A stretch of 64,000 nt of DNA, taken from Dehalococcoidia bacterium (GTDB lineage Bacteria > Chloroflexota > Dehalococcoidia > Lucifugimonadales > JADFKI01). Position 1 is the first letter of the stretch. The number at the start of each line of letters is the position of its first letter. Below the pieces are notes generated by a model. The model was not told where the DNA came from and did not search any database. It saw only the letters and a list, made by a program, of their open reading frames with translations. The stretch is from the NCBI GenBank assembly GCA_965221045.1, contig CBDCRO010000003.1, positions 96,016-160,015 of the forward strand. The letters run 5' to 3'. The position numbers and the translations under genes are program-made. Positions 5,844-62,957 of this stretch are shown one piece after another.

Positions 5844-6815
5844 TCACTCGCATACGATGCCGTCCCCGTCGCCGTCTCTCATATATTGGTATGCTGGATG
5901 GTCGCGGCGAACGGGCGCAATGCCGTGGCTTCGGGCCTCAGCGCAGGTGATCCTGCCGTTGCCGTTATCGTCGTACATCGAGAGCGGGTCCGTATTCGAG
6001 GGAGAACCCGTTCTCTGTGCGGGAGGAGATGTCGGCTGGGCCTGCGGAGGAGCGGAGACGACGACCAGCTCGAACGACGCGCAGCCGGACAGAACGGCAT
6101 CGAGCGCATCGGCTTCTCTCGGATCGACCGTCAGGCCGTACTCCCGCTTTACCTGAACGATGCGAGCGGCAAACCAGCACCGGTTCAGCTCCGGCAGCCA
6201 CTCGGCGGCGTCCTTGCCGCTCTTCTGGTGACGATTGACGCTCGGGCTTGCGAGCGTGAGGTTCAGCAGATCCGATGAGAACCGCTTGCGCGTCGCATCG
6301 CTGGCAGCGCAAAGGCCGCTGTCGTGGGCCTCCGAGCGCGCCACGATGTGCTCGATGTCGGTCTCCCTGGTACTGGAGAAGGTGCGGCCCGTGTAGGGTT
6401 CGTAGATGATGCCTCCCATATCCGCGACTATTCTCGGTTCTACGGACTGAGAGTACGGGTAGTCGCCGGCATCATACGGAGAGCACCGGTACTCCGCCGA
6501 GACAGTCAGTCCCCGCCATGTCTGTCCCGTTGTGCCCGGCGTCCGGACGGCTTGCCGCGGTGTTGCAGTCGGAAGGGGAACAGGCGCACTGGTAGCGGCA
6601 GGCGCACGTTCGGGTGCAGGAGACTGGGTGGGTATCTGCACCAGGACGGCAGTGGGCTGTCCGCCGCGCTCTGGGGTTGCGACCGGCGTTTCCGCGAGCG
6701 TTGTCTCTGCTGTGGCCGTGGGTGAAGTGGCCGGAACCTGCGCCGGCCCGGGCTGTTCGGTGTCGCATGCCGCAGCCGCAATGAGCAGGAGTGCCGCAAG
6801 AATGAGGTTCCGCAT
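5844..6815 (-). CDS. secreted lipoprotein nuclease (HNH/DUF1524-like domain) with C-terminal Excalibur calcium-binding motif
   Basis: Lipobox LIAAAAC is followed by an Ala/Pro/Thr-rich linker. The nuclease-like core reads ETDIEHIVARSEAHDSGLC...LLNLTLASPSVNRHQKSGKDAAEWLP. The C-terminus carries DDNGNGRITCAEA and DGDGDGIVCE (the DxDxDGxxCE Excalibur pattern). Confidence 0.8.
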   Translation of the reverse strand: MRNLILAALLLIAAAACDTEQPGPAQVPATSPTATAETTLAETPVATPERGGQPTAVLVQIPTQSPAPERAPAATSAPVPLPTATPRQAVRTPGTTGQTWRGLTVSAEYRCSPYDAGDYPYSQSVEPRIVADMGGIIYEPYTGRTFSSTRETDIEHIVARSEAHDSGLCAASDATRKRFSSDLLNLTLASPSVNRHQKSGKDAAEWLPELNRCWFAARIVQVKREYGLTVDPREADALDAVLSGCASFELVVVSAPPQAQPTSPPAQRTGSPSNTDPLSMYDDNGNGRITCAEARSHGIAPVRRDHPAYQYMRDGDGDGIVCE

Positions 6816-7815: not shown

Positions 7816-8883
7816 ATGATAGGAGTCGCACCTTACCAGAGTCATCGCGCAGATGAAGTGATCATCGGAGTCGACACTCACAAGGACCAGCATGTGGCAG
7901 TGGCCATTGACGGGCGAGGTGTCCGGCTTGGCGAGAAATACGTGCCTGCGACCACGTGTGGGTACGAGAAGCTCGAACGGTGGTCCCGCAACTTGGGAGC
8001 GATCCACTCGTTCGGCATAGAGGGCACAGGTTCATACGGAGCCGGAGTCGCACGTTTTATGACCGGCTTGGGCTATGTTGTCATAGAGGTCAACAGGCCT
8101 GATCGGTCTGTCCGCTATCGTAAGGGGAAGAGCGACCCCACCGATGCCGAGATGGCGGCCCGTGCGGCGCTTTCTGGTGTAGCCGACGCCACGCCCAAGT
8201 CGGGCAAGGGCGAAGTCGAGATGATCCGCATGCTTAAGAGCACGAAGGACTCCGCTGTCAAGGCTCGCACCCAGACCGTCAACCAGATGAAGGCTCTGGT
8301 TTTGACTGCTCCCGCAGAGCTACGCGAAATGCTCGATGGTTTGACCACCAGCGCTCTGGCCAAGCGGTGCAGAAACTTCCGTACCTCTCGTCTGCGCGAT
8401 CCAAAGGCGGCGGCCAAGTATGCCCTCCGCTCCCTTGCCTGCCGATACCGTCAGCTCAGTGATGAAGTGCGGAACCTGGAGGCTGAGATTGAAAGGCTCA
8501 CGCTGTCAGTCTCCCCGGCCCTGGTCAACGCCTTCGGTGTGGGACCCGACACGGCTGCAACCCTACTGATTGCCGCGGGGAGTAATCCTGATCGGCTCCG
8601 CACCGAGGCAGCATTCGCTTCACTGTGCGGTGTAAACCCGATACCGGCATCATCCGGCAAGACGAACCGGCATCGGCTCAACCGCGGTGGCGACCGACAG
8701 GCCAACGCCGCGCTCTATCGCATCGTCGTGGTCAGGCTGCGTTACGAGCTGCGGACCCAGGCATACATGCAACGTCGAACTGCAGAGGGAATGAGCAAGC
8801 GCGACATCATCCGCTGTCTCAAACGCTATGTTGCTCGAGAAGTCTACTCGGCCATTCAGAAACCTGCCCAGGCGCTCGATTAA
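7816..8883 (+). CDS. IS110-family transposase (DEDD recombinase)
   Basis: N-terminal domain VIIGVDTHKDQHVAV / FGIEGTGSYG. C-terminal Transposase_20-type SLCGVNPIPASSGKTNRHRLNRGGDRQANAALY. Confidence 0.9.
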   Translation: MIGVAPYQSHRADEVIIGVDTHKDQHVAVAIDGRGVRLGEKYVPATTCGYEKLERWSRNLGAIHSFGIEGTGSYGAGVARFMTGLGYVVIEVNRPDRSVRYRKGKSDPTDAEMAARAALSGVADATPKSGKGEVEMIRMLKSTKDSAVKARTQTVNQMKALVLTAPAELREMLDGLTTSALAKRCRNFRTSRLRDPKAAAKYALRSLACRYRQLSDEVRNLEAEIERLTLSVSPALVNAFGVGPDTAATLLIAAGSNPDRLRTEAAFASLCGVNPIPASSGKTNRHRLNRGGDRQANAALYRIVVVRLRYELRTQAYMQRRTAEGMSKRDIIRCLKRYVAREVYSAIQKPAQALD

Positions 8884-18506: not shown

Positions 18507-19061
18507 TCACGTCACAGACGCCAGACTCCCGGACGGGTCCGGCACAAGCTCCAGGTAGATAAGTGTTGTCTGAATCGACGAGTGCCCCAGCCAGCGGGAC
18601 AAGTAATTGATCGGAATACCGTTCATCAACAGGTGGCGTGCGTAGCTGTGGCGTAGCGTGTGAGTTCCGACTCTCTTCCCCGGCGCAACGGCGCCCAGTT
18701 CCTCGGCACGTTTCAGGGCCGCCTGCACCCAGCGCCAGGCTGTCGCGGGGTGCGCCTCGACGATTCTGCCCTGGATGATGTCCCCGTAGGCCAGCGCGCT
18801 GCCCAGCGCTCCATGCAACTCCGGATGCAACGGCACAAGCCTTGTCTTGCCGCCCTTGCCGGATCGCACACGCACCGTCGGATTGGGTGTATCGAGGGAC
18901 AGGTCCCGCACTTCGAGGTCGAGGGCCTCGGATACACGAAGACCGGCCCGCCACTGCTCCAGCATCAGCAGCTTCGCCTTCGGGTTGGGCGCTGCTCTGA
19001 TGATGGCGTTCACCTCGTCAGCTTCGAGATACTCCGGTATGCGCTTCTGGCGTTTGGGAGT
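18507..19061 (-). CDS. small tyrosine recombinase (FimB/XerD-like catalytic domain), 3' portion of a gene interrupted by IS110 type-2 copy a
   Basis: RAGLRVSEALDLEVRDL, HTLRHSYARHLL and WLGHSSIQTTLIYLEL give the R..HxxR..H..Y pattern. The track ORF extension to 19274 runs through the IS right end. Confidence 0.8.
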   Translation of the reverse strand, partial: TPKRQKRIPEYLEADEVNAIIRAAPNPKAKLLMLEQWRAGLRVSEALDLEVRDLSLDTPNPTVRVRSGKGGKTRLVPLHPELHGALGSALAYGDIIQGRIVEAHPATAWRWVQAALKRAEELGAVAPGKRVGTHTLRHSYARHLLMNGIPINYLSRWLGHSSIQTTLIYLELVPDPSGSLASVT

Positions 19062-19075
19062 ATCCGTGTTAGATG

Positions 19076-20047
19076 TCAAGCCGATCCGGCCTGATAAGAT
19101 GGGCAGTCGCTCCCGTACCGTTTCACCCAGGGAGTTCCTCGACGCGCCACGGCGTTTAGCTGCATCAGCAGCTTGCGTGCCACTGCTATCACAGCTACCT
19201 TGCCGGGTTTGCCGCGCTCCCGAAGACGCCGATAGAAGTCGCGTAGGTCGCCATCTACCCTGAGCACCACCCAAGCACAGATATACAGCGCCCGTCGCAC
19301 CGTCCCACGACCGCCTCGAATGGACCGATTGCCACGCTTTTTGCCGCTGTCACGCGACCAGGGAGCAAGCCCCACCAGCGATGTCAACGCCCGTCCGTCC
19401 CGCCTGCCAAGTTCGGGCAAATATGCGATAAGTGTAGCCGCGGTCAGCTGTCCCACTCCGGGTACCGTCTGATACAGTTCGACTGTCTCACTGAGACTGG
19501 CGCTGCGCTTCAACAACTCCTTGTACTCCTCATCCAACCGCTCTATCTCTCTGTCCAGCCAGCGGATGTGACGCCTGGTCGACTTCCCGACACTCCCGCT
19601 TACGCCCTTGTCCAGTCGGTTGCGCTCCCGCACCCGCTGCTCGACAAGTTGACGCCGCCTGCTCAGTAACTGCCGCAGCTCCTCACGGTCAGGATCCACA
19701 TCCGGTTGTGTTGTGTCCGACTCGGAGAACACCACGCCGTAGCGAGACAGCACCTGAGCATCGAGAGGGTCGGTCTTCGCCTCGTATCCGCACGCGCGGG
19801 CAAATGCGCGCACCCTGACCGGATGCGCCACTTCTACGCCGATCACCGTCTCCCTCAGCTTGCCTACCACAAGACGCTCATACCCACCGGTGAACTCGCA
19901 CACCGCCTTGGTCACACCTGCCCGCTCCAGATGCCTGAGCAACCTGCGAATGCCTGTCGCGCTGTTCTCAAAGCGGAGCACGGGACCTTCAGAAACTGAC
20001 ACCTCCAAAGTTGCCTTCGATACATCTATGCCTGCTACGACTATCAT
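19076..20047 (-). CDS. IS110-family transposase (type 2)
   Basis: VAGIDVSKATLEV, FTGGYERL and LVGLAPWSRDSGKKRGNRSIRGGRGTVRRALY. Paralogous to 29812-30732 and 61926-62879. Confidence 0.9.
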   Translation of the reverse strand: MIVVAGIDVSKATLEVSVSEGPVLRFENSATGIRRLLRHLERAGVTKAVCEFTGGYERLVVGKLRETVIGVEVAHPVRVRAFARACGYEAKTDPLDAQVLSRYGVVFSESDTTQPDVDPDREELRQLLSRRRQLVEQRVRERNRLDKGVSGSVGKSTRRHIRWLDREIERLDEEYKELLKRSASLSETVELYQTVPGVGQLTAATLIAYLPELGRRDGRALTSLVGLAPWSRDSGKKRGNRSIRGGRGTVRRALYICAWVVLRVDGDLRDFYRRLRERGKPGKVAVIAVARKLLMQLNAVARRGTPWVKRYGSDCPSYQAGSA

Positions 20048-20268
20048 AGTCCGACCTCCGTGTGTATTATGCCGTTGTGCTCCACACTTGCAGATGCGGG
20101 CCTCGTGCCCTTGTATCCGTTCGGAGCCACAAATGCGGCGGGAGGGGTGTCATACTCCCAAACGGTGCAGCCCGGCGCAGCAGCCTGGCTCACCCAGTCG
20201 CTCACGACGCGCCCCTCTCACCCACCTCACAAACTGACACGTTTGCAAGTCAAATACAACATACAAGT
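20048..20268 (-). ncRNA. candidate bridge-RNA-like leader of IS110 type-2 copy a
   Basis: Block-conserved in four copies. Its variable blocks match this copy's own junction (GTTTGGGAGT against ACT+CCCAAAC at the right junction; TGCGCCG against the left flank CGGCGCA). Confidence 0.55.
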
Positions 20269-20337
20269 TGCGCCGTCCTGTGTTTTAGGGTAACGCCCGC
20301 GGGGCCTGTGCCGGCGGGAGATTGCTGTGATGGCCAT
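20269..20337 (-). pseudogene. displaced 5' end (23 codons) of the small tyrosine recombinase gene
   Basis: ATG at 20337, then MAITAISRRHRPRGRYPKTQDGA, ending exactly at the IS left junction. It is in frame with 19061 downward if the IS and one ACT copy are removed. Confidence 0.45.
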
Positions 20338-20411
20338 ACAGGTTAGCCTATCCTCTCATCTGTCCGCTGCCGAACCACTCAGGTCGATCCCCAATTGGAA
20401 TCGGACTCAGT

Positions 20412-21500
20412 TCACCTTTTGCCTCCACTCTCAACTAGCATTGCGGCGGCAGAGGTGTGATTTGCCACTTCCGCTATGAAGAGAGCAGTTCTACCTTTGT
20501 CATCTCTGTCATTTACATCCGCGCCAGCTCGGATAAGCGCACTTATAGTGTCGGTGTTTCCCTCATAGCCAGCCGCCGTGTGCAACGGGATACTGCCTTG
20601 GTTCGACCTGGCAGCCACGTCAGCACCCAGGTTGATGAGCACATCGACCATTTTAATTCCGCTCTCCTCATTTCGGTCACTCGGGAAGTAGCGGATACCC
20701 ATCGAGGATCTTAGGATTGCGTAATGCAAGGGCCTAAATCCACGCGCGTCGGCGGCGTTGACATCGGCCCCGGAGTCGACAAGCATCCTTGCGAACGACA
20801 CATCCCCGTTGGCCGCCGCTATATGCAGTGGTGTCCAGCCAGCCGGTGGGCGGATGGGTTTGTGGTCAGCTCCAGCCTCGACTAGCAACTGTCCCGTTCC
20901 AATCTGTTCATTTAACGCTGCCGCATGAAGAGGTGTATAGCCTTCCTCCGTAGTGGCGTGCACATCGGCGCCAGCGGCAATAAGTTCCTTGCTCGTCAAC
21001 ACGCTTCCTCTGTACGCTGCTTCGTGCAAGGGTGTGCCATCGAACAATGTGGTGGAATCGACTTCGGCCCCGGCTGAGATTAACGCTCTAGCCACCTCCG
21101 ACTGATCGTGTCTGGCCGCAATATGCAGTGGCCTGTAAGTTAGGCTGTCCTCCGCCTCGATGTCAGCTCCAACTTCTATTAGGGTAGCGGCCATTTCCAC
21201 CAATCCGATTCTTGCTGCCAGGTGAAGTGGTGTAAGTCTATACAAGTCGATTTTTGGAGTATTTACCTCCAATGGAGTATTCACATCAACACCAACAGAT
21301 GCCAGCACTTTCACTTTCCATATCTCATTATTGAGAACAGCCGACTCCACGGTCGCACTGCCAAAAGCAGCAAGTACCACGACGGCAGCGACGATTGCGG
21401 CCGGTAATGCCAGAGCGGAGATGAGGACCCACCTCCTATTGACAGCTTGTCTGATGTCTTCCTCCAATTGCGGCGGAGTGCTACCTGCATTGTTTGACAC
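20412..21500 (-). CDS. membrane-anchored ankyrin-repeat protein
   Basis: One N-terminal TM (WVLISALALPAAIVAAVVVLAAFG) is followed by about 8 ankyrin repeats (TPLHLAARIG..., RPLHIAARHD..., TPLHEAAYRG..., TPLHAAALNE..., TPLHIAAANG..., IPLHTAAGYE...). The start is GTG. Confidence 0.9.
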   Translation of the reverse strand: MSNNAGSTPPQLEEDIRQAVNRRWVLISALALPAAIVAAVVVLAAFGSATVESAVLNNEIWKVKVLASVGVDVNTPLEVNTPKIDLYRLTPLHLAARIGLVEMAATLIEVGADIEAEDSLTYRPLHIAARHDQSEVARALISAGAEVDSTTLFDGTPLHEAAYRGSVLTSKELIAAGADVHATTEEGYTPLHAAALNEQIGTGQLLVEAGADHKPIRPPAGWTPLHIAAANGDVSFARMLVDSGADVNAADARGFRPLHYAILRSSMGIRYFPSDRNEESGIKMVDVLINLGADVAARSNQGSIPLHTAAGYEGNTDTISALIRAGADVNDRDDKGRTALFIAEVANHTSAAAMLVESGGKR

Positions 21501-21864: not shown

Positions 21865-24800
21865 TTATTGAGCGGGTCCCATCCCAACGATTGTAAGCGT
21901 GAAGTCACCGGCCTTCTCCGGCGAGTACGTGGTGACCTCTATCGTGTAGGTCTCGGCCTCTAATGTCTCTTGTATCCTCGAGTTAAAGTTGCGACCCTCA
22001 CGGTCTATGTCATCGTTCTCGTACTCGATGACGCCACCCCTACCGGAACCCTCGAGCACATACAGGTAGGTGTCTTCTGCCGATTCTAGCGTTATGGTTA
22101 CTTCTGCGGCCTCGTCAAGCGTAAATGTGTAGTAGCGCGCGAAGTAGTCCTGATTGACGCTGACGTCATCTACGTCTGGTCTGTTCTCGGACAGGCAGGA
22201 GTCGTCCCAGGTTGCTTCTATCGTGGCGTCGGCTTCAATCGACTGCACACAAGTGTCTGCTTCCGGTTCAGGCTCGGGTGCCGGCTGTTCAGCCTGACCA
22301 AGCCCCTCTATTGTCAGGGTGAAGTCTCCGGCAGTTCCGGGCTTGTATGTCGTTGCCTCGATGGTGTAGTCGCCGGGTTGCAGTGTCACAATTAATTGAG
22401 AGTTGGTGTTCGAGCCCAGGACGATGTCGTCGTGCTCGCGCAGGGTGTTACCGCTCTCACCGTGTCCATTCAGAACGTAGAGATAGGTGTCTTCCGTCGA
22501 ACTGAGAGAGATGACAATCTCAGCTGCCTCATCGAGCGTGAAGGTATAAAAGCGAGCGAACCTGTCGCCGGCGCCGCCCGGCGCCTCATTCTCAGACAGG
22601 CAGAAGTCGTCCCAGTTCGCTTCTATCGTGGCGTCGTCTTCAATGGCCTGCACGCACGAGTCAGCTTCCGGTTCAGGTAGGGGATCCGGTTCAGGCTCCA
22701 GGGTCGGCTGATCCGCCTGTCCGACGCCCTCTATCGTCAGGGTGAAATCACCGGCCTTCTCCGGCGAGTACGTGGTGACCTCTATCGTGTAGGTCTTGGC
22801 CTCTAATGTCTCTTGTATCCGCGAGTTAAAGTTGCGACCCTCACGGTCTATGTCATCGTTCTCGTACTCGATGGCGCCACCCCTACCGGAACCCTCGAGC
22901 ACATACAGGTAGGTGTCTTCTGCTGATTCCAGCGTTATGGTTACTTCTGCGGCCTCGTCAAGCGTAAATGTGTAGTAGCGCGCGAAGTAGTCCTGATTGA
23001 CGCTGACGTCATCTACGTCTGGTCTGTTCTCGGACAGGCAGGAGTCGTTCCAAGTTGCTTCTATCGTGGCGTCGGCTTCAATCGACTGCACACAAGTGTC
23101 TGCTGGCTCAGGCGCAGGGGCCTCTCCACGGGTTACTGTGACGGTGTACGTACTCGTAGTGGGATCGTCCTCTGCCGTGACCTCGACCGTGATGACGTTC
23201 TCTCCCACAGCGAGGTCAATAACTCCATCCTCGTCCTCCACTCCATCCAGCTTGATCACGTGAGTCGCCTCGAGGTCGTTCCTCACGGGAGTCACGGTCG
23301 TCTGCGTGACTTCGTTCGCCACCTCGGCGGTGTATGAGGTCGTATCCGTTTCGAAGGCGCCGAAGTCTAGTCCACTCAGCGAGAGGGACCTCAGCGTTGC
23401 GTCCGAGGAGAGCGCATCCGCTGTCTTGGCGCGGGTTACCACAGCGGTGTAGATGCGTGTCGTTGCGCCGTCCTCGGCGGTCACCCTAACAGTGATAACG
23501 TTCCTGCCCGGGGCTAGGTCAATCACGCCGTCGTCGTCTACCGTCCCACCGAGTGTGACCACATAGCTTGCGGCCGCGTCATTCAGCGTTGCCGTGACTG
23601 TCGTCTGCGTTACGTCATTGGTGACACTGCCGGTGTAACGGTATGTCGAAGAGCTGAAGTCCGTATCCAGTTCTACGCCGCTCAGAGAGAGTGCGCTCAG
23701 CGTAGCGTCCGCTGACAGCTCCGTCGTCCCGGTCGCACGCGTGTGCACCTCGAGGGACATCTCTATGATGACGGTTCCTGTGTCGCTCTTCAGCGAAAGG
23801 TCGAACCTGTACCGGGAGTCGGCAGACAGGCCGGTGTTGGAGTGGGAGTAGCTGCTACCGCCACTCGCATCACCGGATACCGTCCAGTCGGAGACTGCGA
23901 ACTCCGTGCCGTCGTGGTCGTACCTCTCAAGCACATAGCCGGTGATGCCTCGGTTGCTCGGTATCTCCCACGCCAGGCCCACCTCGTCCTCGCCAAAGCT
24001 CGTGATACGGAAGTTGACCGGCGGGTCGTCAGTTGGTAGCTCACCCGCAAGCAGGGACGGCGCCATGCGTGTAACCGTCACGGTGTAAGTAAGCTTCGTC
24101 TCACCGTCCTCGGCCGTCACTTCGACCGTTATGATGTTCTCTCCTACCTCGAGCGTGACTTCACCGTTCGTCACTGCGACTCCGTCCAGTTCTATGGTGT
24201 AGCTCGCGCCCGAGTGGCTTGCTGTCGGAGAAACGGCCGTCTGCGACACATCGGTCCCTACTTCCGTGGTGTAAGAAGTAGTGGCAGGATCGAATGTACC
24301 GAAGTCAATACCGCTCAATGACAGCGCGCTAAGGGTGCAGTCAGTGGATAGCGTACGGATCGAAGACGACGATTCTATGATCGTTGCGCCGCCATCATCC
24401 TTCAGCATCAGGACATTCTGGTACAGGGTGTCCGGCTCCAGGTCTGAGATAAGCAGCGCGTGCCCACCTCCTTCGTTCGCATTGCCTTCAAATCGTGCGC
24501 CAACTCCGCTCCCGGACGAGACGAACCCACTGCCGTCGTGCTCATGCCTTTGCACAACGTACTTGGTTATGCCCCGGTTCTGCGGCACGGACCACGCTAA
24601 ATCGACCGAGTCGTGCGTATAGCTCGACACTCTGAAATTCACCTCTGGGTCGTCGGTGGGAAGCTCACCCGTTACGGGATCGGGTGAACGTGGCGGTGTT
24701 TCATCCTGGGAGGCACGTGTGACTGCTACAGTGTAAGTACGCTTGGTCGTCCCGTTCTGCGCCGTGACCTCGACTGTGATGACGTTGCTTCCTACGGCCA

Positions 24801-27800
24801 GCGAAATGACGCCGTCGGCGTCCGTCACTCCGCCAAGCTTGATGACATAGCTTGCGCCTGAGTCGCTCGGCGTAGGCGAGACTGTCGTCTGCGACACGCT
24901 GTTGGTGACCTGAGCGGTGTATGAAGTTGTCGTCGAGTCGAATGTGCCGAAGTTGACGCCGGTCAATGTCAGTGCTCTCAGAGTTGCGTCCGTCGATAAC
25001 GGCGCCGCGCGCGTCACGGTTACGGTGTATGTCTCGGTGGTGCTTTCGTCCTCTGCAGTCACCTCGACAGTTATGACGTTGCTGCCCACGCTGAGGACGA
25101 TAACGCCGTCGGCGTCCATCACTCCACCGAGCCTGATGACATAGCTGGCCCCGGAGTGGTTCGGCGTAGGTGTGACGGTCGTCTGCGCGACGCTGTTCGC
25201 GACCTGAGCTGTGTACGAAGTCGTCGTCGTCGTAAATGCGCCGAAGTTAACGCTCGACAGAGAAAGGGCGCTGAGTGTGGCGTCCGTCGATGGCGGCGCT
25301 GCGCGTGTCACGGTTACGGTGTAGGTCCTGGTGGTCTCGCCGTCTTCCGCCGTCACCTCTACCGTGATGACGTTACTGCCCACCGCAAGGGAGACCTTGC
25401 CGTCTGCGTCGGTCACACCGCCAAGCTTGATGGCGTAGCTCGCCCCGGAGTGGTTAGCGGTCGGAGTGACCGTGGTCTGTGACACGCTGTTGCCGACTTG
25501 TGCCGTGTATGAAGTAGTCGTCGAATCGAAGGGCCCGAAGTTTATGCCACTCAGCGTCAGCGCGCTGAGCGATGCGTCGTCGGACTGTTGCTCCGGAGTG
25601 AATGGTTCCCCTCGAGTGAGTGTAACCGTGTATGTCTGTGTGGTCTTGTCGTCCTCAGCGGTCACCTCGACGGTAATGACGTTGCTGCCCACCACCAAGG
25701 AGACCGTGCCGTCTGCATCGATCACGCCACCGAGTCTGATGACGTAGCTCGCCCCGGAGTCGTTCACGGTCGGCGTGACGGTGGTCTGAGATACGCTGTT
25801 GGCAACGCTGGCGGTGTACGAAGTTGTGTCGGACGAGAATGTTCCGAAGTCAATACCACTCAATGTCAGAGCGCTGAGCGTGGCATCCGTCGAAGGCGGT
25901 TCGGCCCGCGTGACGGTCACGGTGTACGTCTTCGTAGTGCTGCCGTCCTCTGCCGTTACCTCGACGGTGATGACGTTGCTGCCCACGCTGAGGGCGATAA
26001 CGCCGTCTGCATCTGTCACTCCGCCGAGCTTTATGACGTAGCTCGCCGCCGAATGGTTCACGGTCGGAGTGACGGTGGTCTGCGAGACGCTGTTGGCGAC
26101 CTGGGCAGAGTACGAAGTGGTTGTAGAGTCGAAGCTGCCGAAATCAATGCCGCTCAGAGTCAGGCCCTTGAGAGTGGCATCGGTCGAAGGGGGCTCGGCT
26201 CGCGTAACCGTCACGGTGTATGTCTTGGTGGTGGTCGTGTCCTCGGCCGTTACCTCGACAGTGATGACGTTGCTGCCCACAGCCAGTGAGACTGTGCCAT
26301 CTGCGTCGATCACGCCGCCGAGCTTGATGACATAGCTTGCTTCCGAGCCGTTCGTTATCGCCGTAACCGTCGTCTGAGATACGCTGTTTGTGACTTGTGC
26401 GCTGTAAGACGTTGTTCCCCCAAGGAATTTACCGAAGTCTATTCCGCTTAGCGTCAGGGACTTCAGAGTGGCGTCCGTCGAGGGCGGCGCAGCGCGCGTC
26501 ACGGTTACGGTGTATGTCTTGGTCGTTTCGTTGTCCTCCGCCGTGACCTCGACGGCGATGACATTGCTGCCTACTGCTAGGGATACTGTGCCGTCCGCGT
26601 CCTCCACGCCTCCAAGCTTAATGACGTAGCTTGCCCCGGAGTGGTTCACCATCGGGGTGACGGTCGTCTGCGACACAATGTTTGCCACTTGCGCGGTGTA
26701 TGATGTCGTGCCCGAGGCGAACGTACCGAAGTTCACGCCGCTCAGCGTCAGCGCGCTCAGGGTAGCGTCAGTCGATGGGGGAGCCGAGCGTGTAACCGTT
26801 ACGGTGTAGGTCCTAGTTGTGACCAGGTCCTCTGCCGTGACCTCCACCGTGATGACGTTGCTGCCCCCAGAGAGTGAGACTGTTCCGTCTGGGTCGGTAA
26901 CGCCGCCCAGCTTGATGACATAGCTTGCCCCGTCGTCGTTAACGGTCGGTGTAACCGTCGTCTGAGACACGCTGTTGGCGACCGTACCAACGTAACTGGT
27001 GACGGTGCTATGAAATCCCGACCCGACAAAAGTGCGGTCGGTCGCCTCGAAGTCTACGTCGCTGAGGGTCAGATCGCTCAGCGTGGCATCTGACGACAAT
27101 GTAGTGGTGCCGGGCTCCGGAGGAGTGCGAACTGTCAGCGATGTCTCTATGACGGTGGCACTCTGACTGTTCAGCATCTTTGCGACCCACTTGTACAGTG
27201 TGTCCGGCTCCGGCTCAGTGTAGGTCCAGGACAGATTGAGACCGCCAAGATCATCATCGGACGTATTTTCGTAGCGCCCATCTTCTCCCGCCGACACAAA
27301 GTTGTCGCCGTCGTGCTTATACCTCTGCGTGACAGTCCCGGTGATGCCGCGATTCCTTGGCATGCTGAAGGTCAAGGCAACGTAAGTGTGAGTATAGGAA
27401 GTAGTTCGGAAGTTCACTCGAGGGTCGTCTGTCGAAAGTTCCCCTGTCGTTGGCGCAGAAGCCGCTGCGCGCGTAACTGTCGCGGTGTAGGTCCTTGTGG
27501 TCTGACCGTCCTCTGCCGTAACCTCCACTGTGATGACGTTGCTGCCTACGGCTAAGGAGATAACTCCGTCAGAGTCGGTCACGCCGCCCAGCTTGACGAC
27601 GTAGCTCGCGCCGGACTGATTTGCCATAGCCGTTACGGTCGTCTGTGCGACGCTGTTGTAAACGCTGGCGGTGAATGATGTCTGTGTTTGTGGATATCTG
27701 CGGTGGCCAAGGCCGTTACCGATATCTATGCCGCTGAGTGCCAGCCACTCGAGAGTGGCGTCCGTCGAAGGGGCCGCGCGCGTGACGGTTACGGTGTACG

Positions 27801-29589
27801 TCTCAGTGGTGCTGTCGTCTTCTGCCGCTACTTCCACCGTAATGACATTGCTGCCCACGGCAAGCGAGACTATACCATCTGCATCGGTCTCTCCACCAAG
27901 CTTGATGACGTAGCTCGCCCCGTCGTCGTTGACGGTTGGCGTGACGGTCGTCTCAGACACGCTGTTTGCAACACTAGCCGCGTAAGATGTGGTATCGGAC
28001 GCGAAAGTGCCGAAGTCTATTCCACTCAATGTGAGCGCGCTCAGCGTTGCGTCCGAGGAGGTCTGTTGAAGGGCAACCAGGCGTGTGACGGTTACGGTGT
28101 ATGTCCGAGTCGTGGAGTCGTCCTCGGCTGTGACCTCAACAGTGATGACATTACTGCCCGCTGCTAAGGAGATGACGCCATCGGCGTCAGTCACTCCACC
28201 AAGCTTGATAACGTAGCTCGCGCCGGAGTGGTTAACAGTGGGCGTAACGGTCGTTTCCGTCACACTATTGGCAACCTCTGCGGTGTATGAAGTAGTGCCG
28301 GACGCGAATGTACCGAAGTCTATTCCGCTCAGTGTCAGACTCTTGAGTGTGGCGTCCGTCGAGGCGGCGCGCGTGATGGTTAAGGTGTATGTCTGCGTAG
28401 TGCTGTCGTCCTCAGCCGTCACCTCTACGGTGATAACGTTGCTGCCCACGCTCAGAGGGATCAGTCCGTCAGAATCTGCAACGCCGCCGAACTTGATGAC
28501 ATAGCTCGCCTCGGAATGGTTCACGGTCGGGCTGACGGTCGTCTCCGACACGCTGTTGGCGACTTGGGCAGTGTATGAGGTTGTGCCCGCTGTGAAGGTG
28601 CCGAAGTCAATGCCGCTGAGGGTGAGGTCGCTCAGGGTGGCGTCTGTGGATAGAGGCGTGGGCGAAGGTATTTGGATACTCACAACCTCGGAGTCATAGG
28701 AAGTATAGAAGCCTGTCACAGCCCTGACTCTATATTCATAGGTACGACCCGACGATGACCCGACATTCGTGTCGGTATAGGTGGTGTGGCTCTTATCCAC
28801 CACATAATTCTGAGTAGCGGCAACAGAGCCTTTGTAACGCCAATCGCGTATGACTTCATAACGCCAAAGATTACCTTCGGGGGCATCCCAACTCAGAACT
28901 ACTTTGCTCCCGTCCGACGCTAATGACGCCGTCAGATTTGTTGGGGCTGCGGTCGCTGGATTTTCGGCAGTTGAATCTACGATAACGGTTATGGCCTCCT
29001 CTACGATGGTTTCGTTTGCCGCGTTTCTAAGCGTAAGCACATACTCATAGTTCGTATCAACCTGAAGCCAGTGGTTGGAGCTTACAATTTGTGTGGCGCC
29101 AAAAGTGGCTACCCCCGTCAGTGGAGGGTCGAACTCATCACCGTTGGGTTCGTACATTTGCACAACGTAATTGGTAATCCCATAACCATCTGGAGTATCC
29201 CAATTCAAAGAAACCTGAACAAAGATGGGGCGCCCCACGGTTTGCGGCCAGGGGCTATGAAACCATATCCCTCTCAACTTAGCGCTGGGCATGTCTCCGG
29301 GCGTGGCAGTAGCCGTTGGCGTGGGCGTTGCCTGCTGCGCGAAGGCGGAGGTTCCGCTGAAGAGCAGGGCGAACACTATTATCGCGGCGGCAATGGCGAA
29401 GGGGGAGATTCTGAACAGCGGTATTATCAATGGACTGATGCGATGTAACATTCGGGACTCCCGATCTTCGGGTAAAAGCGCGGAGTGAGCAAGTCGCTGC
29501 GCCAGTACTATTATAAGCATAAGCCCAATGACCGCAACGACCGAGATTAGCGCCAATACGCTTTCCATACAAGAACCCCCTCGTGGCAA
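21865..29589 (-). CDS. giant secreted surface protein (2574 aa): FN3-like + 15 cadherin-like beta-sandwich repeats + 3 C-terminal PPC-type modules
   Basis: There are 15 units of ~95 aa ending in ITVEVTAED..T.TYTVTVTR, each beginning STDATL..LTLSGIDFG.F...TTSYTA. FN3-like modules are interspersed (GITGYV..RY.HDG). The three C-terminal modules read C.Q.IE.DATIEA.W.D.CLSEN...FARYYTFTLDEAAE..I.L.S.EDTYLYVL. A hydrophobic N-terminus ends in SAFA-QQ; the start could be downstream (M at 29451). Confidence 0.9.
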   Translation of the reverse strand: MPRGGSCMESVLALISVVAVIGLMLIIVLAQRLAHSALLPEDRESRMLHRISPLIIPLFRISPFAIAAAIIVFALLFSGTSAFAQQATPTPTATATPGDMPSAKLRGIWFHSPWPQTVGRPIFVQVSLNWDTPDGYGITNYVVQMYEPNGDEFDPPLTGVATFGATQIVSSNHWLQVDTNYEYVLTLRNAANETIVEEAITVIVDSTAENPATAAPTNLTASLASDGSKVVLSWDAPEGNLWRYEVIRDWRYKGSVAATQNYVVDKSHTTYTDTNVGSSSGRTYEYRVRAVTGFYTSYDSEVVSIQIPSPTPLSTDATLSDLTLSGIDFGTFTAGTTSYTAQVANSVSETTVSPTVNHSEASYVIKFGGVADSDGLIPLSVGSNVITVEVTAEDDSTTQTYTLTITRAASTDATLKSLTLSGIDFGTFASGTTSYTAEVANSVTETTVTPTVNHSGASYVIKLGGVTDADGVISLAAGSNVITVEVTAEDDSTTRTYTVTVTRLVALQQTSSDATLSALTLSGIDFGTFASDTTSYAASVANSVSETTVTPTVNDDGASYVIKLGGETDADGIVSLAVGSNVITVEVAAEDDSTTETYTVTVTRAAPSTDATLEWLALSGIDIGNGLGHRRYPQTQTSFTASVYNSVAQTTVTAMANQSGASYVVKLGGVTDSDGVISLAVGSNVITVEVTAEDGQTTRTYTATVTRAAASAPTTGELSTDDPRVNFRTTSYTHTYVALTFSMPRNRGITGTVTQRYKHDGDNFVSAGEDGRYENTSDDDLGGLNLSWTYTEPEPDTLYKWVAKMLNSQSATVIETSLTVRTPPEPGTTTLSSDATLSDLTLSDVDFEATDRTFVGSGFHSTVTSYVGTVANSVSQTTVTPTVNDDGASYVIKLGGVTDPDGTVSLSGGSNVITVEVTAEDLVTTRTYTVTVTRSAPPSTDATLSALTLSGVNFGTFASGTTSYTAQVANIVSQTTVTPMVNHSGASYVIKLGGVEDADGTVSLAVGSNVIAVEVTAEDNETTKTYTVTVTRAAPPSTDATLKSLTLSGIDFGKFLGGTTSYSAQVTNSVSQTTVTAITNGSEASYVIKLGGVIDADGTVSLAVGSNVITVEVTAEDTTTTKTYTVTVTRAEPPSTDATLKGLTLSGIDFGSFDSTTTSYSAQVANSVSQTTVTPTVNHSAASYVIKLGGVTDADGVIALSVGSNVITVEVTAEDGSTTKTYTVTVTRAEPPSTDATLSALTLSGIDFGTFSSDTTSYTASVANSVSQTTVTPTVNDSGASYVIRLGGVIDADGTVSLVVGSNVITVEVTAEDDKTTQTYTVTLTRGEPFTPEQQSDDASLSALTLSGINFGPFDSTTTSYTAQVGNSVSQTTVTPTANHSGASYAIKLGGVTDADGKVSLAVGSNVITVEVTAEDGETTRTYTVTVTRAAPPSTDATLSALSLSSVNFGAFTTTTTSYTAQVANSVAQTTVTPTPNHSGASYVIRLGGVMDADGVIVLSVGSNVITVEVTAEDESTTETYTVTVTRAAPLSTDATLRALTLTGVNFGTFDSTTTSYTAQVTNSVSQTTVSPTPSDSGASYVIKLGGVTDADGVISLAVGSNVITVEVTAQNGTTKRTYTVAVTRASQDETPPRSPDPVTGELPTDDPEVNFRVSSYTHDSVDLAWSVPQNRGITKYVVQRHEHDGSGFVSSGSGVGARFEGNANEGGGHALLISDLEPDTLYQNVLMLKDDGGATIIESSSSIRTLSTDCTLSALSLSGIDFGTFDPATTSYTTEVGTDVSQTAVSPTASHSGASYTIELDGVAVTNGEVTLEVGENIITVEVTAEDGETKLTYTVTVTRMAPSLLAGELPTDDPPVNFRITSFGEDEVGLAWEIPSNRGITGYVLERYDHDGTEFAVSDWTVSGDASGGSSYSHSNTGLSADSRYRFDLSLKSDTGTVIIEMSLEVHTRATGTTELSADATLSALSLSGVELDTDFSSSTYRYTGSVTNDVTQTTVTATLNDAAASYVVTLGGTVDDDGVIDLAPGRNVITVRVTAEDGATTRIYTAVVTRAKTADALSSDATLRSLSLSGLDFGAFETDTTSYTAEVANEVTQTTVTPVRNDLEATHVIKLDGVEDEDGVIDLAVGENVITVEVTAEDDPTTSTYTVTVTRGEAPAPEPADTCVQSIEADATIEATWNDSCLSENRPDVDDVSVNQDYFARYYTFTLDEAAEVTITLESAEDTYLYVLEGSGRGGAIEYENDDIDREGRNFNSRIQETLEAKTYTIEVTTYSPEKAGDFTLTIEGVGQADQPTLEPEPDPLPEPEADSCVQAIEDDATIEANWDDFCLSENEAPGGAGDRFARFYTFTLDEAAEIVISLSSTEDTYLYVLNGHGESGNTLREHDDIVLGSNTNSQLIVTLQPGDYTIEATTYKPGTAGDFTLTIEGLGQAEQPAPEPEPEADTCVQSIEADATIEATWDDSCLSENRPDVDDVSVNQDYFARYYTFTLDEAAEVTITLESAEDTYLYVLEGSGRGGVIEYENDDIDREGRNFNSRIQETLEAETYTIEVTTYSPEKAGDFTLTIVGMGPAQ

Positions 29590-29811
29590 GGATGTTGGCT
29601 ACCCTAGCTCTGTGCTCGGTTGGTGAGGTGCAGCTGATAACCAACATGTCCCCACACGTGTCTGCCGAGGCCGGCGTTAGGGCCACCGCGTTGCCCGCCG
29701 CCGAAGCACCATTAATCGCGCAGGATTTCCCGCCCACCGGGACAGTTTCCGTGTTGGATGTCAAGCTTATCTGAAGGTTTAGGAAGTAGTTTGCATCTGG
29801 TGCTGATCCAT

Positions 29812-30732
29812 TCAGGGAGTTCCTCGACGGGCCACAGCATTCAGTTGCAGCAGGAGTTTGCGTGCCACTGCCACCATTACCACTTTACCTAGTTTGCCAT
29901 GTTCCCGGAGTCGCTTGTAGAAGCGGCGTAGGTCGCCATCGACACGAATCCCTGACCACGCGCAAATATACAACGCCCGTCGCACCGCGCCACGTCCACC
30001 TCGTATGGACCGATTACCTCGCTTCTTCCCGCTGTCCCGCGACCACGGGGCCAGACCCACCAGGGAGGTCAACGCCTTCTCGTCCCGGTGCCCCAGTTCT
30101 GGCTGCCTGGCTGCCAGAACAGCAGCCGTCAACTGTCCCACACCCGGCACGCTGCGGTACAACTCGGCCCGTCCGCACAGGTCAGGGCTGCGCCGCAGTG
30201 CCTCTTGGTACTCCTCATCTAGTTGCTCTATCTCCTTATCCAGCCAGCGAAAATGACGCCTTGTTGACTTCCCGACGCTCGCAGAGATGCCCTTGTCCAG
30301 GCGGTTACGCTCCTGTACACGCTGCTCGACCAGTTGCCGCCGCCGACTGAGCAACTGCCGCAATTCCTCACGGTCTGAATCCGCCTCCGGTTGCGGCGTG
30401 TCCGGTTCAGAGAACACCACACCGTAGCGTGAGAGCACCTGGGCGTCCAAGGCGTCGGTCTTAGCCTCGTAACCACAGGCCCGGGCGAAGGCGCGTACCC
30501 GAAGCGGATGCGCCACGTGCACAGTGAACGCCATCTCCCTCAACTTGCTCACCAGCAGCCGTTCATATCCTCCTGTGGATTCGCACACCGCCTTCGTCAC
30601 ACCCTGCCCCTCCATTTGCCTGAGCAGGTCTTCGATTCCCTTGCAGCTGTTATCGAAACGACTTACTTCGCCTTCCGATACAGATACATCCAGAGTTGCC
30701 TTCGACACGTCAACACCGGCTACGACTGCCAT
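29812..30732 (-). CDS. IS110-family transposase (type 2)
   Basis: SD AAGGAGGA. VAGVDVSKATLDV, STGGYERL and LVGLAPWSRDSGKKRGNRSIRGGRGAVRRALY. Confidence 0.9.
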   Translation of the reverse strand: MAVVAGVDVSKATLDVSVSEGEVSRFDNSCKGIEDLLRQMEGQGVTKAVCESTGGYERLLVSKLREMAFTVHVAHPLRVRAFARACGYEAKTDALDAQVLSRYGVVFSEPDTPQPEADSDREELRQLLSRRRQLVEQRVQERNRLDKGISASVGKSTRRHFRWLDKEIEQLDEEYQEALRRSPDLCGRAELYRSVPGVGQLTAAVLAARQPELGHRDEKALTSLVGLAPWSRDSGKKRGNRSIRGGRGAVRRALYICAWSGIRVDGDLRRFYKRLREHGKLGKVVMVAVARKLLLQLNAVARRGTP

Positions 30733-30958
30733 ATTCTATCCTCCTTATTTATCTATGATGCCTCTGCCCTCCACACTTGCAGATGCGGGTCTAGCGCCCT
30801 TGTATCCGTTCGGAGCGACAGGTGCGGCGATAGGGGTGTCATACTCCAGTACGGTGCAGCCTAGGATTGCCGCCTGGCTCACCCAGTTCGACACGACGCG
30901 CCCCTCTCCCCTGAACCTCCAGACTGACACATCTGAAGCTCTTTGACAACATACAAGT
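30733..30958 (-). ncRNA. candidate bridge-RNA-like leader of IS110 type-2 copy b
   Basis: It has the same conserved blocks as copies a, c and d, with different variable blocks. Confidence 0.5.
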
Positions 30959-31515
30959 AATTGTCGTTGACCAACATATGCGAGGCACGACTACACTGCA
31001 CTGGCCGACGCGGTCGACTTCGGCAGTCACGAAGCAGTGCTGGACGCCGGCGGGGGAACGGGGAGTTGGCGTACGCGCTGCTGCGAAGGTACTCCGACCT
31101 CACGGCGACCGTGATGGACAGGCCTGAGGTAGTGCGCGACGCTGTCGCGCCCGACGACATCGGGGCAAGGTGTGAGTTCGTCGTGGGTGATCTGCTCGGG
31201 GAATGGCCTCTGGTCACCGATGCGGCGATTCTGGCCAGGGTGCTTCACGACTGGTCCGACGAAGAGGCAATTCGGATACTGACTGGAGCTCGCGCGGCGA
31301 TGGACACGGGCGGGACTCTGTATGTCGTCGAGATGGTGCTGGACGGAGCCAGCGGCTCAGGCGGCCTGCTTGACCTGAACATGCTGGCTATGACGGGTGG
31401 AACGGAGCGCACCGCGACTCAGTATTCGGAGCTGCTGAGAGCGGCGGGCTTCGAGATGAAGAAAGTCGTGCCGACGGGCGCAGTCAGCTCAGTAATCAGG
31501 GCGGTTGCGGTGTGA
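30959..31515 (+). pseudogene. class I SAM-dependent O-methyltransferase (family 2-like), 5'-truncated at the IS junction and frameshifted
   Basis: One frame reads DFGSHEAVLDAGGGTG and another reads ELAYALLRRYSDLTATVMDRPEVV...LHDWSDEEAIRIL...GGTERTATQYSELLRAAGF, so there is a 1-nt frame break near 31060-31070. The gene begins abruptly at the IS copy b left end. Confidence 0.65.
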
Positions 31516-61266: not shown

Positions 61267-61448
61267 ACTTGTATGTTGTATTTGACTTGCAAGAGTGGCA
61301 GTGGGTGAGAGGGGCGCGTCGTGGGACACTGGGTGAGCTAGGAGAGATTCCTGGACTGCACCGCAAGTAGTAAGACTCCCCTCTCGCCGCACTTGTCGCT
61401 CCGAACAGATACAAGGGCGGAAGGCCCGGATCTGCAAGTGTGGAGCAA
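61267..61448 (+). ncRNA. orphan left-end/leader fragment of IS110 type 2 (copy d), truncated after ...GTGTGGAGCA
   Basis: It aligns with the leaders of copies a, b and c from ACTTGTATGTTGTATTTGACTTGCAA to ATCTGCAAGTGTGGAGCA. No transposase gene follows. Confidence 0.55.
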
Positions 61449-61460
61449 CCGTCTTGTTTG

Positions 61461-62879
<1,419 letters not shown>

Positions 62880-62957
62880 ACTCCGCTCAGGGCTTGACAT
62901 TGAACACTGCGATGATACCTCTTGGGCCACCCAGGATTGGATCTGACCTAATTTAAC

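What the first reader, a model, noticed from the sequence alone, without database searches (positions are those of the whole stretch)
20048..20268. IS110-family leader carries a 10-nt block complementary to its own insertion junction (bridge-RNA-like guide), copy a
A 221-nt untranslated leader lies between the transposase start (20047) and the element terminus (20268). It is conserved in blocks in all four copies in this window. In copy a, the variable block just 5' of the conserved CCCCTC.CGCCGCA block reads GTTTGGGAGT in transposase sense (plus strand 20154-20163 = ACTCCCAAAC). This is the exact reverse complement of the core plus right-flank DNA at this copy's own right junction (sense ACT|CCCAAAC; plus strand 19052-19061). 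Another variable block contains TGCGCCG (plus 20173-20179 = CGGCGCA). That block is complementary to the 7 nt of left flank directly abutting the ACT core (plus 20269-20275). A 10-mer anchored on the junction is very unlikely by chance in the roughly 60 nt of variable leader. IS110-family elements (IS621) were shown in 2024 to encode a bridge RNA in the left non-coding end, with programmable target and donor loops. This lineage shows the expected signature directly in sequence.
Basis: partly seen in the sequence, partly recalled or inferred. Interest (0 to 1): 0.8.

Follow-up and report, generated by a model that had tools for sequence, protein, structure and literature searches.

The report
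IS110 bridge RNA in element leader
The untranslated leader of this IS110-family insertion sequence encodes an ordinary IS621-type bridge RNA whose guide loops match the element's own insertion site and its own ends; this is a known mechanism in an undescribed lineage from Dehalococcoidia-type genomes.

Summary
The sequence facts are correct. GTTTGGGAGT (20163..20154, minus strand) is the exact reverse complement of the right junction, and a 10-mer match is far beyond chance.

The leader folds, with covariation support, into a 5' hairpin plus two stem-loops with internal loops, as in the IS621 bridge RNA. The 10-mer breaks down as:
- right target guide: 7 nt of right flank plus the CT core;
- one handshake base that pairs with the element's own terminal A.

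The core is CT, not ACT.

It lies in the variable distal hairpin, and across 47 insertions that hairpin matches left flanks no better than unrelated pairings.

The real left guide is GAGCGACT (20203..20196). It reads in the same sense as the left flank plus core, so it would pair with the bottom strand.

Across 43 insertions and 25 guide classes, both guides track their flanks; 0 of 10,000 permutations reach the observed score. An empty site in a metagenome confirms the boundaries.

The recombinase is homologous to IS621 and ISCro4. A TTGACA-17-TATGTT promoter forms across the circle junction.

Verdict: a new member of a known kind. As a side finding, identical copies sit at sites that match the guides of co-resident sibling elements, which suggests guidance in trans.

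The parts
20268..20274 (-). Left target (LT), GGCGCAA in element sense. These are the last 7 nt of flank before the core.
   Evidence: The sequence is contiguous with the right flank in the empty sites L081 and L082.
20266..20267 (-). Core dinucleotide CT at the left junction.
   Evidence: CT precedes TGTATG in 31 of the 32 aligned leaders (L007 has AT). The empty site has a single CT.
20252..20265 (-). Start of the left end (the right donor arm, TGTATGTTGTATTT). It contains the -10-like hexamer TATGTT at 20263..20258.
20224..20251 (-). 5' stem-loop of the predicted RNA. The predicted RNA spans about 20251..20071, roughly 181 nt.
   Evidence: Helix 1: 7 of 10 pairs show compensatory changes.
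20206..20222 (-). 5' strand of the basal stem of the target-binding stem-loop.
   Evidence: Helices 3-4: 97-99% of cells paired, and 4 pairs show compensatory changes.
20195..20205 (-). 5' side of the target-binding internal loop, GTGAGCGACTG. The left target guide is GAGCGA plus core CT, at 20203..20196.
   Evidence: The same-sense match to the left flank covaries across 25 guide classes: 4.05 of 6 against 2.59 permuted, with 0 of 10,000 permutations reaching it. In this copy 4 of 7 positions match, plus one G-T wobble.
20164..20194 (-). Distal hairpin of the target-binding stem-loop.
   Evidence: Helix 5: 6 pairs show compensatory changes. There is no relation to flanks across loci.
20152..20163 (-). 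3' side of the target-binding loop, GTTTGGGAGTAT. It comprises the right target guide GTTTGGG, the core complement AG, and the handshake dinucleotide TA.
   Evidence: It is the reverse complement of CT+CCCAAAC (9 of 9). The RTG covaries with the right flank: 3.92 of 5 against 1.71, with 0 of 10,000 permutations reaching it. TA is complementary to the TA that ends the right end. The handshake rule comes from PMC11208158.
20137..20151 (-). 3' strand of the basal stem of the target-binding stem-loop (contains CCCCTCCCGCC).
20071..20136 (-). Donor-binding stem-loop:
- stem at 20122-20136 with 20071-20084;
- left donor guide loop AACGGATACAA (20121..20111);
- hairpin at 20098-20110;
- right donor guide loop GCATCTGCAAGTG (20097..20085).
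   Evidence: ACGGATAC equals the right end ACGGATAC(T). TGCAAG is the reverse complement of CTTGTA with one G-T wobble. L003, L004 and L026 change G to A in both the guide and the right end.
20048..20070 (-). Spacer with the ribosome-binding site GGAGG, ahead of the ATG.
19076..20047 (-). IS110-family DEDD/serine recombinase, 323 aa. Predicted catalytic residues: D8, E51, D93, D96 and the Ser of the DSG motif (residue 234).
   Evidence: Pfam PF01548 and PF02371. PDB ISCro4 9t56 E=1.4e-32 and IS621 8wt6 E=2e-28. Residue positions.
19061..19079 (-). Right end (the left donor arm): TTGACATCTAACACGGATA. The -35 hexamer TTGACA (19079..19074) overlaps the stop codon.
19059..19060 (-). Core dinucleotide CT at the right junction.
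19052..19058 (-). Right target (RT), CCCAAAC.
18507..19058 (-). 3' part of the tyrosine-recombinase gene interrupted by copy a. Its first 23 codons lie at 20337..20269.
   Evidence: Pfam PF00589. An uninterrupted 210-aa homologue is at L082 8460..9092.

Best explanation
The leader of copy a encodes an IS621-type bridge RNA of about 180 nt (roughly 20251..20071, minus strand).

After excision, the right end and left end join through one CT. The -35 box of the right end (TTGACA) then lies 17 nt from TATGTT in the left end, and this promoter would drive the RNA.

The RNA folds into a 5' hairpin and two stem-loops, each with a large internal loop.

First loop (target-binding):
[quoted passage not shown] - The next two bases, TA, act as a handshake guide for the donor's terminal TA.

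Second loop (donor-binding, nearly invariant):
- ACGGATAC would pair with the right end.
- (T/G)ACAAG would pair with the start of the left end.

The DEDD/serine recombinase bound to this RNA would bring the circular element and the target GGCGCAA-CT-CCCAAAC together and exchange strands at CT.

Shown here by computation: the architecture, the guide-flank covariation, the element boundaries and the homology of the enzyme. Inferred from IS621: transcription, RNA-protein binding and the chemistry.
For: 1. Exact 9-nt complementarity of the RTG to core plus right flank in copy a. The 10-mer is expected about 2e-4 times by chance in one leader.
2. In 43 distinct insertions and 25 guide classes from 80 related loci plus the window, own-guide matches are 4.05 of 6 (left, same sense) and 3.92 of 5 (right, reverse complement). 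Permuted values are 2.59 and 1.71. None of 10,000 class permutations reaches the observed values.
3. The consensus structure on 32 distinct leaders has 95.9% of cells paired and 20 pairs with compensatory changes. None of 500 shuffles reaches this, and slid controls give 34-50% paired. The two guide blocks fall exactly on the two sides of the first internal loop.
4. The first loop is variable and the second conserved, and a 5' stem-loop precedes them, as described for 103 IS621 orthologues (PMC11208160).
5. The donor-loop sequences equal the element's own ends. Three classes (L003, L004, L026) change G to A together in the guide and in the right end.
6. The recombinase has PF01548 and PF02371. 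It aligns over 303 residues with the IS621 and ISCro4 transposases of solved bridge-RNA complexes.
7. Empty site: L081 and L082 carry GACGGCGCAA-CT-CCCAAACGCC uninterrupted, in L082 inside a 210-aa tyrosine-recombinase ORF.
8. A TTGACN-(16-18)-TATGNT promoter spans the RE-CT-LE junction in 36 of 38 distinct junctions. The exact form TTGACA-17-TATGTT occurs in 19.
Against: - There are no expression data.
- The leader of copy a does not fold more stably than shuffles (z = -0.59).
- Rfam 15 gives no match on either search. It therefore seems to hold no bridge-RNA model, so there is no independent model-based confirmation.
- In copy a the left guide matches its flank only 4 of 7, plus one wobble.
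- Copy b fits neither of its own guides, and copy c has a damaged right end.
- The donor-binding helices are almost invariant, so covariation cannot test them.
- No promoter or terminator consensus is found in the integrated copy. That is expected if the promoter forms only in the circle.
Confidence: 0.9

Rival explanations
1. One reading: both variable blocks (TGCGCCG and GTTTGGGAGT) are guides that pair with the same (top) strand on either side of an ACT core.
For: Both complementarities exist in copy a. A 7-mer match next to the junction has roughly a 0.05 chance in one leader.
Against: - The hairpin block shows no relation to the left flank across 47 insertions: own 3.23 against cross 3.30, and copy a is the only 7-mer case.
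- L063 has the same hairpin with an unrelated left flank.
- TGCGCCG is partly inside a stem supported by compensatory changes.
- Another block fulfils the left-guide role with covariation.
- The empty site and the family alignment show a CT core.
Confidence: 0.04
2. The leader is only a 5' UTR or promoter region of the transposase, and the complementarity to the junction is a coincidence.
For: The thermodynamic z-score is not significant. There is no Rfam match.
Against: - The 10-mer chance is about 2e-4.
- Guide-flank covariation holds in 25 classes.
- Compensatory changes occur in the stems that frame the guide loops.
- The donor-loop sequences match the element's ends.
Confidence: 0.02
3. 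The internal blocks act as DNA rather than RNA, for example as subterminal repeats read by the protein or by DNA-DNA pairing in the circular intermediate.
For: Sequence covariation between the blocks and the flanks does not by itself say which molecule pairs.
Against: - The blocks lie in internal loops of a structure maintained by compensatory base changes, which is selection on a single-stranded fold.
- The left and right guides address opposite strands, as in the RNA-DNA duplexes seen in IS621 structures (PMC11208160 and PMC11208158).
- The enzyme is homologous to the one in those structures.
Confidence: 0.03

Closest known systems
IS621 bridge RNA and recombinase (IS110 group; Durrant et al. 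2024, PMC11208160; Hiraizumi et al. 2024, PMC11208158)
   Same: - Long left end that encodes the RNA upstream of the recombinase, with a very short right end.
- A 5' stem-loop plus two stem-loops with internal loops; the first loop is variable and the second conserved.
- The left guide has the same sense as left flank plus core; the right guide is the reverse complement of core plus right flank.
- CT core.
- A two-base handshake position 3' of the right guides.
- ATA...TAT around the donor core.
- A sigma-70-type promoter split across the circle junction.
- A DEDD plus Ser recombinase of about 320 aa.
   Different: - The RNA has no detectable primary-sequence relation that I could test. The recombinase gives only E=2e-28 against IS621.
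[quoted passage not shown]
- The hosts are Dehalococcoidia, SAR202 and Caldilineaceae metagenome-assembled genomes rather than E. coli.
- Nothing has been tested experimentally.
ISCro4 transposase (PDB 9t56)
   Same: It is the best match among solved structures (E=1.4e-32, residues 5-307), with the same domain order.
   Different: I did not compare its RNA. The similarity is at the protein level only.
IS1111-group elements and their right-end-encoded guide RNA (seekRNA)
   Same: The same recombinase family, and the same principle of an element-encoded RNA that reads both target and donor.
   Different: IS1111 elements carry the RNA in a long right end and have 7-17-bp subterminal inverted repeats (PMC11208160). 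Here the left end is about 219 nt and the right end about 15 nt.

Membership tests
IS110-group bridge-RNA element (IS621 type) | Recombinase with an N-terminal DEDD RuvC-like domain and a C-terminal Tnp domain carrying the catalytic Ser | tested here: met
   PF01548 (E=5e-21) and PF02371 (E=1.8e-18). The protein aligns with IS621 (8wt6) and ISCro4 (9t56) over residues 5-307. D8, E51, D93, D96 and the Ser of the DSG motif (residue 234) are present.
IS110-group bridge-RNA element (IS621 type) | A long non-coding left end upstream of the recombinase, a short right end, and no terminal inverted repeats | tested here: met
   The left end is 219 nt (20265..20048 plus the core). The right end is about 15 nt past the stop codon.
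IS110-group bridge-RNA element (IS621 type) | [quoted passage not shown] | tested here: met
   The 5' hairpin and the target-loop stems carry compensatory changes. The donor stem-loop is predicted but nearly invariant, so it is not tested by covariation.
IS110-group bridge-RNA element (IS621 type) | The 5' side of the first loop matches left flank plus core in the same sense; the 3' side is the reverse complement of core plus right flank | tested here: met
   0 of 10,000 permutations reach the observed score for either side. Copy a scores right 7 of 7 plus core, and left 4 of 7 plus core.
IS110-group bridge-RNA element (IS621 type) | The second loop matches the element's own right end and left end around the core | tested here: met
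   ACGGATAC equals the right end, and (T/G)ACAAG is the reverse complement of CTTGTA. L003, L004 and L026 show a joint G-to-A change. The second core base in the left donor guide reads A rather than T.
IS110-group bridge-RNA element (IS621 type) | A dinucleotide core shared by target and donor | tested here: met
   CT is present at both junctions and once in the empty site.
IS110-group bridge-RNA element (IS621 type) | A promoter reconstituted across the RE-LE junction of the circle | tested here: met
   TTGACA-17-TATGTT in copy a. The TTGACN/TATGNT form with a 16-18 nt spacer occurs in 36 of 38 distinct junctions. This is sequence evidence only.
IS110-group bridge-RNA element (IS621 type) | The RNA is transcribed, is bound by the recombinase and is required for recombination | not testable with these tools
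   No expression or biochemical data are available.
IS1111 group | A long right end that encodes the RNA, with 7-17-bp subterminal inverted repeats | tested here: not met
   The right end is about 15 nt, and the guides lie in the left end.
Any Rfam family | A match to a curated covariance model | tested here: not met
   There are no matches at gathering score in the window. In 19900-20400 the only match is a chance miRNA hit with E=9.

The most novel reading that the evidence does not exclude
Sibling IS110 elements in one genome share donor ends but carry different target loops, and their bridge RNAs act in trans on each other.

Copies 99-100% identical to the c-type element sit at sites that fit the guides of co-resident a-type or L064-type elements and not their own. 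One element (L064) is a chimera that combines the a-type left guide region with a c-type body.

If this is right, the effective target range of one IS lineage in nature is set by the pool of bridge RNAs in the cell. Even truncated copies such as window copy d or L063 could then still steer insertions.
Probability: 0.5. Interest if true: 0.55.

Novelty: new member of a known kind. Interest (0 to 1): 0.3.

Why it matters
The finding shows that bridge-RNA guides can be read directly from raw sequence in an uncultured lineage. It also provides a set of natural guide/target pairs (25 guide classes) with a shared donor loop. These could serve as orthologues for bridge-recombinase engineering.

For annotation of this window, it explains several features:
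- a tyrosine-recombinase gene is split at 19058/20268;
- insertions are nested at 61.2-62.9 kb;
- some copies do not fit their own guides.

The mechanism itself is already established for IS621, so the finding is confirmatory rather than surprising.

Tried and rejected
- **Rfam.** Scans at gathering score (whole window) and at E<=10 (19900-20400) found nothing relevant.
- **Thermodynamic stability.** The copy a leader is no more stable than shuffles, z = -0.59. It is uninformative for this G+C-rich sequence, so I relied on covariation instead.
- **Promoter and terminator scan.** The integrated copy gave 0 sites. The promoter appears only when the right end and left end are joined.
- **TGCGCCG hairpin block as a left guide or extra guide.** Rejected.
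- **ACT as the core.** Rejected in favour of CT plus a handshake or right-end A.
- **Guide drift or gene conversion as the reason some copies misfit their flanks.** Rejected for L012, L013 and L024, because these copies are 99-100% identical to copies at cognate sites.
- **Literature search for natural cross-guidance between co-resident IS110 elements.** Nothing relevant turned up with the terms used. This does not prove that it is unreported.
- **Not done.** I did not build a covariance model or run the large protein searches, because the 80 loci from one genome scan were enough.

Full report
**What is in the sequence**

On the minus strand, a 323-aa ORF runs 20047..19076. A non-coding leader precedes it, up to 20268.

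Read in the sense of the ORF, the left junction is ...GACGGCGCAA|CT|TGTATGTTG... The right junction is ...TTGACATCTAACACGGATA|CT|CCCAAACGCC....

- GTTTGGGAGT at 20163..20154 is the exact reverse complement of ACTCCCAAAC at 19061..19052.
- TGCGCCG at 20179..20173 is the exact reverse complement of 20275..20269.

The 10-mer occurs nowhere else in the window. It is expected 0.10 times in 64 kb on both strands, or about 2e-4 for one leader. The 7-mer occurs 29 times in the window, so finding it in a 221-nt leader has a chance of about 0.05.

**Copies in the window**

A tblastn and blastn search with copy a finds:
- copy b (29744-30957, minus; 79% aa identity);
- copy c (61705 to about 62900, plus; 65% aa identity);
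- a leader-only remnant d (61268 to about 61447, plus).

Remnant d is cut off by a fragment of another IS110-type transposase gene on the minus strand (61485-61712). Copy c is in turn inserted into that fragment.

The four leaders align with conserved blocks separated by short variable blocks.

**The enzyme**

The three ORFs carry PF01548 (DEDD_Tnp_IS110) and PF02371. Copy a aligns over residues 5-307 with the ISCro4 transposase (9t56, E=1.4e-32) and the IS621 transposase (8wt6, E=2e-28). Both are proteins of solved bridge-RNA complexes.

D8, E51, D93, D96 and the Ser of the DSG motif (residue 234) occupy the catalytic positions.

**The published rule**

[quoted passage not shown] The core is CT. 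The two bases 3' of each right guide are handshake guides that pair with positions 6-7 of the other DNA after strand exchange (PMC11208158).

Under this rule, GTTTGGG-AG is a right target guide for CT+CCCAAAC. The following TA is complementary to the TA that ends the right end (GGATA). A left guide, however, should read like the left flank, not like its complement.

**Relatives**

One scan of genome contigs with the transposase returned 80 loci, all from metagenome-assembled genomes:
- most are from Dehalococcoidia or SAR202;
- some are from Caldilineaceae;
- one is from Anaerolineales and one from Poribacteria;
- several genomes hold many copies.

Anchoring on the conserved blocks, I extracted from each locus the two variable loop blocks, the hairpin between them, the donor-loop block and both flanks.

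The variable block between GGGGCGCGTC and GGGTGAGC reads like the left flank plus CT:
- L003, L004 and window d: GGGACACT next to flank GGGACA|CT.
- L050: CAGGTACT next to CAGGTA|CT.
- L008: AGGCAACT next to AGGCAA|CT.
- Window c: GACCGCT next to GACCG|CT.

The block between CTGCACC and TA(T/A)GAC is the reverse complement of CT plus the right flank:
- L079: CTGTCCAG.
- L050: CTTGGGC.
- L002: CTGCTCC.
- Window a: CTCCCAAAC.

**Statistics**

There are 43 distinct insertions with both flanks, falling into 25 guide classes.
- Own-guide matches are 4.05 of 6 on the left and 3.92 of 5 on the right.
- Permuted class assignments give 2.59 and 1.71.
- None of 10,000 permutations reaches the observed value on either side or for the sum.

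By contrast, the hairpin block that holds TGCGCCG in copy a shows no relation to the left flank. The mean longest complementary match is 3.23 for own pairs and 3.30 for cross pairs, and copy a is the only case with 7.

L063 is a 98%-identical a-type copy in another genome. It has the same hairpin beside an unrelated left flank.

The real left guide of copy a is GAGCGA-CT (20203..20196). It matches its flank GGCGCAA-CT at 4 of 7 positions plus one G-T wobble.

**Structure**

RNAalifold on 32 distinct leaders predicts three parts:
- a 5' hairpin;
- a stem-loop whose internal loop has the left-guide block on its 5' side and the right-guide block on its 3' side, closed by a distal hairpin;
- a second stem-loop that holds AACGGATACAA and GCATCT(G/A)CAAGTG.

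Counting pairs gives 95.9% of cells paired and 20 pairs with compensatory changes. None of 500 shuffles reaches this, and slid controls fall to 34-50% paired.

The compensatory changes lie in the 5' hairpin, the basal stem of the first stem-loop and its distal hairpin. The second stem-loop is nearly invariant and therefore untested.

This is the layout reported for IS621 orthologues: a 5' stem-loop, a variable first internal loop and a conserved second one.

The single-sequence fold of copy a leaves both guides unpaired but is no more stable than shuffles (z = -0.59). Rfam gives no match on either search.

**Donor loop**

ACGGATAC in the second loop equals the right end ACGGATAC(T). (T/G)ACAAG is the reverse complement of CTTGTA at the core and left-end start.

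In L003, L004 and L026, both the guide and the right end read ACAGATA instead of ACGGATA.

The donor shows ATA before the core and TAT two bases after it, like the short subterminal repeat noted for IS110-group donors.

**Boundaries and target**

The 22-mer that joins the two flanks through one CT (GACGGCGCAACTCCCAAACGCC) occurs in two metagenome contigs. In L082 it lies inside an uninterrupted 210-aa tyrosine-recombinase ORF, MTTESSIAMSRRRRPRGRYQKTQDGATPKRQKRIPEYLEPDEV....

In the window, the same gene is split. Codons 1-23 lie at 20337..20269 and the rest at 19058..18507 (PF00589). Copy a therefore inserted at codon 24 of this gene, and the element is bounded by CT on both sides.

**Promoter**

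Joining the right end, one CT and the left end gives TTGACA, 17 nt, TATGTT in copy a. The -35 box overlaps the transposase stop codon.

The exact form is found in 19 of 38 distinct junctions. TTGACN with a 16-18 nt spacer and TATGNT is found in 36 of 38. The integrated copy shows no promoter consensus.

This fits the junction promoter described for IS621. The predicted start falls at the foot of the 5' hairpin, and the RNA would run to about 20071, roughly 181 nt.

**Copies that do not fit**

Copy b fits neither of its own guides (1 of 6 and 0 of 5). Its right flank CT|GTCCC fits the right guide of copy c, which resembles the half-match insertions described for IS621.

Copy c fits its left flank (5 of 7; GACCG-CT). 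Its right end is damaged: TTGAACAC is followed by TGCGATGATACC instead of GGATACT.

In genome CBDCTG01, L012, L013 and L024 are 99-100% identical to c-type copies that sit at cognate sites. Yet their flanks fit the guides of co-resident a-type or L064-type elements at 9-10 of 11 positions, with P<0.0005 against guide sets from other genomes.

L064 is a chimera: a-like for its first 100 nt and c-like after.

Guidance in trans by a sibling's RNA is the simplest reading. Trans expression works for IS621 in E. coli, and integrated IS621 copies express some bridge RNA.

**Verdict**

The finding is real and its main interpretation is right, but it describes a regular member of a known system. Two details needed correcting: the left guide and the core.

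Confidence that the leader encodes a functional bridge-RNA homologue is about 0.9. What remains is experimental: transcription and activity.

Noticed in passing
L012, L013, L024, L064 (genome CBDCTG01); window 29744-30957 (copy b): Copies 99-100% identical to the c-type element sit at sites that fit the guides of co-resident sibling elements rather than their own (9-10 of 11 positions, P<0.0005). L064 is an a/c chimera. Window copy b fits only copy c's right guide. This suggests bridge RNAs act in trans between sibling elements that share donor ends.
   Followed up: partly
window 61268-62905: Nested insertions. The leader-only copy d (61268 to about 61447) is cut by a fragment of another IS110-type transposase gene on the minus strand (61485-61712), and copy c is inserted into that fragment at 61705. 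Copy c's right end lacks the terminal GGATACT (about 62895-62905), so c is probably immobile.
   Followed up: partly
window 18507-19058 and 20269-20337; L082 8460-9092: Copy a interrupts a small (about 205-210 aa) tyrosine-recombinase gene at codon 24. Intact versions exist in metagenome contigs MKWU01003896 and MKWU01005857. In L082 the gene is followed by an ankyrin-repeat protein, and in the window an ankyrin-like ORF lies at 20412-21500.
   Followed up: partly
window 30958-30990: The left flank of copy b (GCATATGTTGGTCAACGACAATTA) resembles the start of a left end (TGTATGTTGTCAAAG). It may be a remnant of an older copy or a donor-like target. I have no explanation for it.
   Followed up: no
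window 7816-8883: A further IS110-family transposase (355 aa, PF01548 and PF02371) belongs to a different lineage, about 26% identical to copy a. Its non-coding ends were not examined.
   Followed up: no
window 5844-6815; 21865-29589; 48381-59825: There is a GmrSD_C/Excalibur-domain protein (323 aa) and two giant ORFs (2574 aa and 3814 aa). None was examined.
   Followed up: no
L012, L015, L017, L019, L022, L023: Six or more c-type copies share identical flanks for at least 267 nt to the left. Either the element with its flanks is part of a larger repeated unit, or the same repeat was hit several times. L017 also has a 51-nt tandem duplication of the right end.
   Followed up: partly
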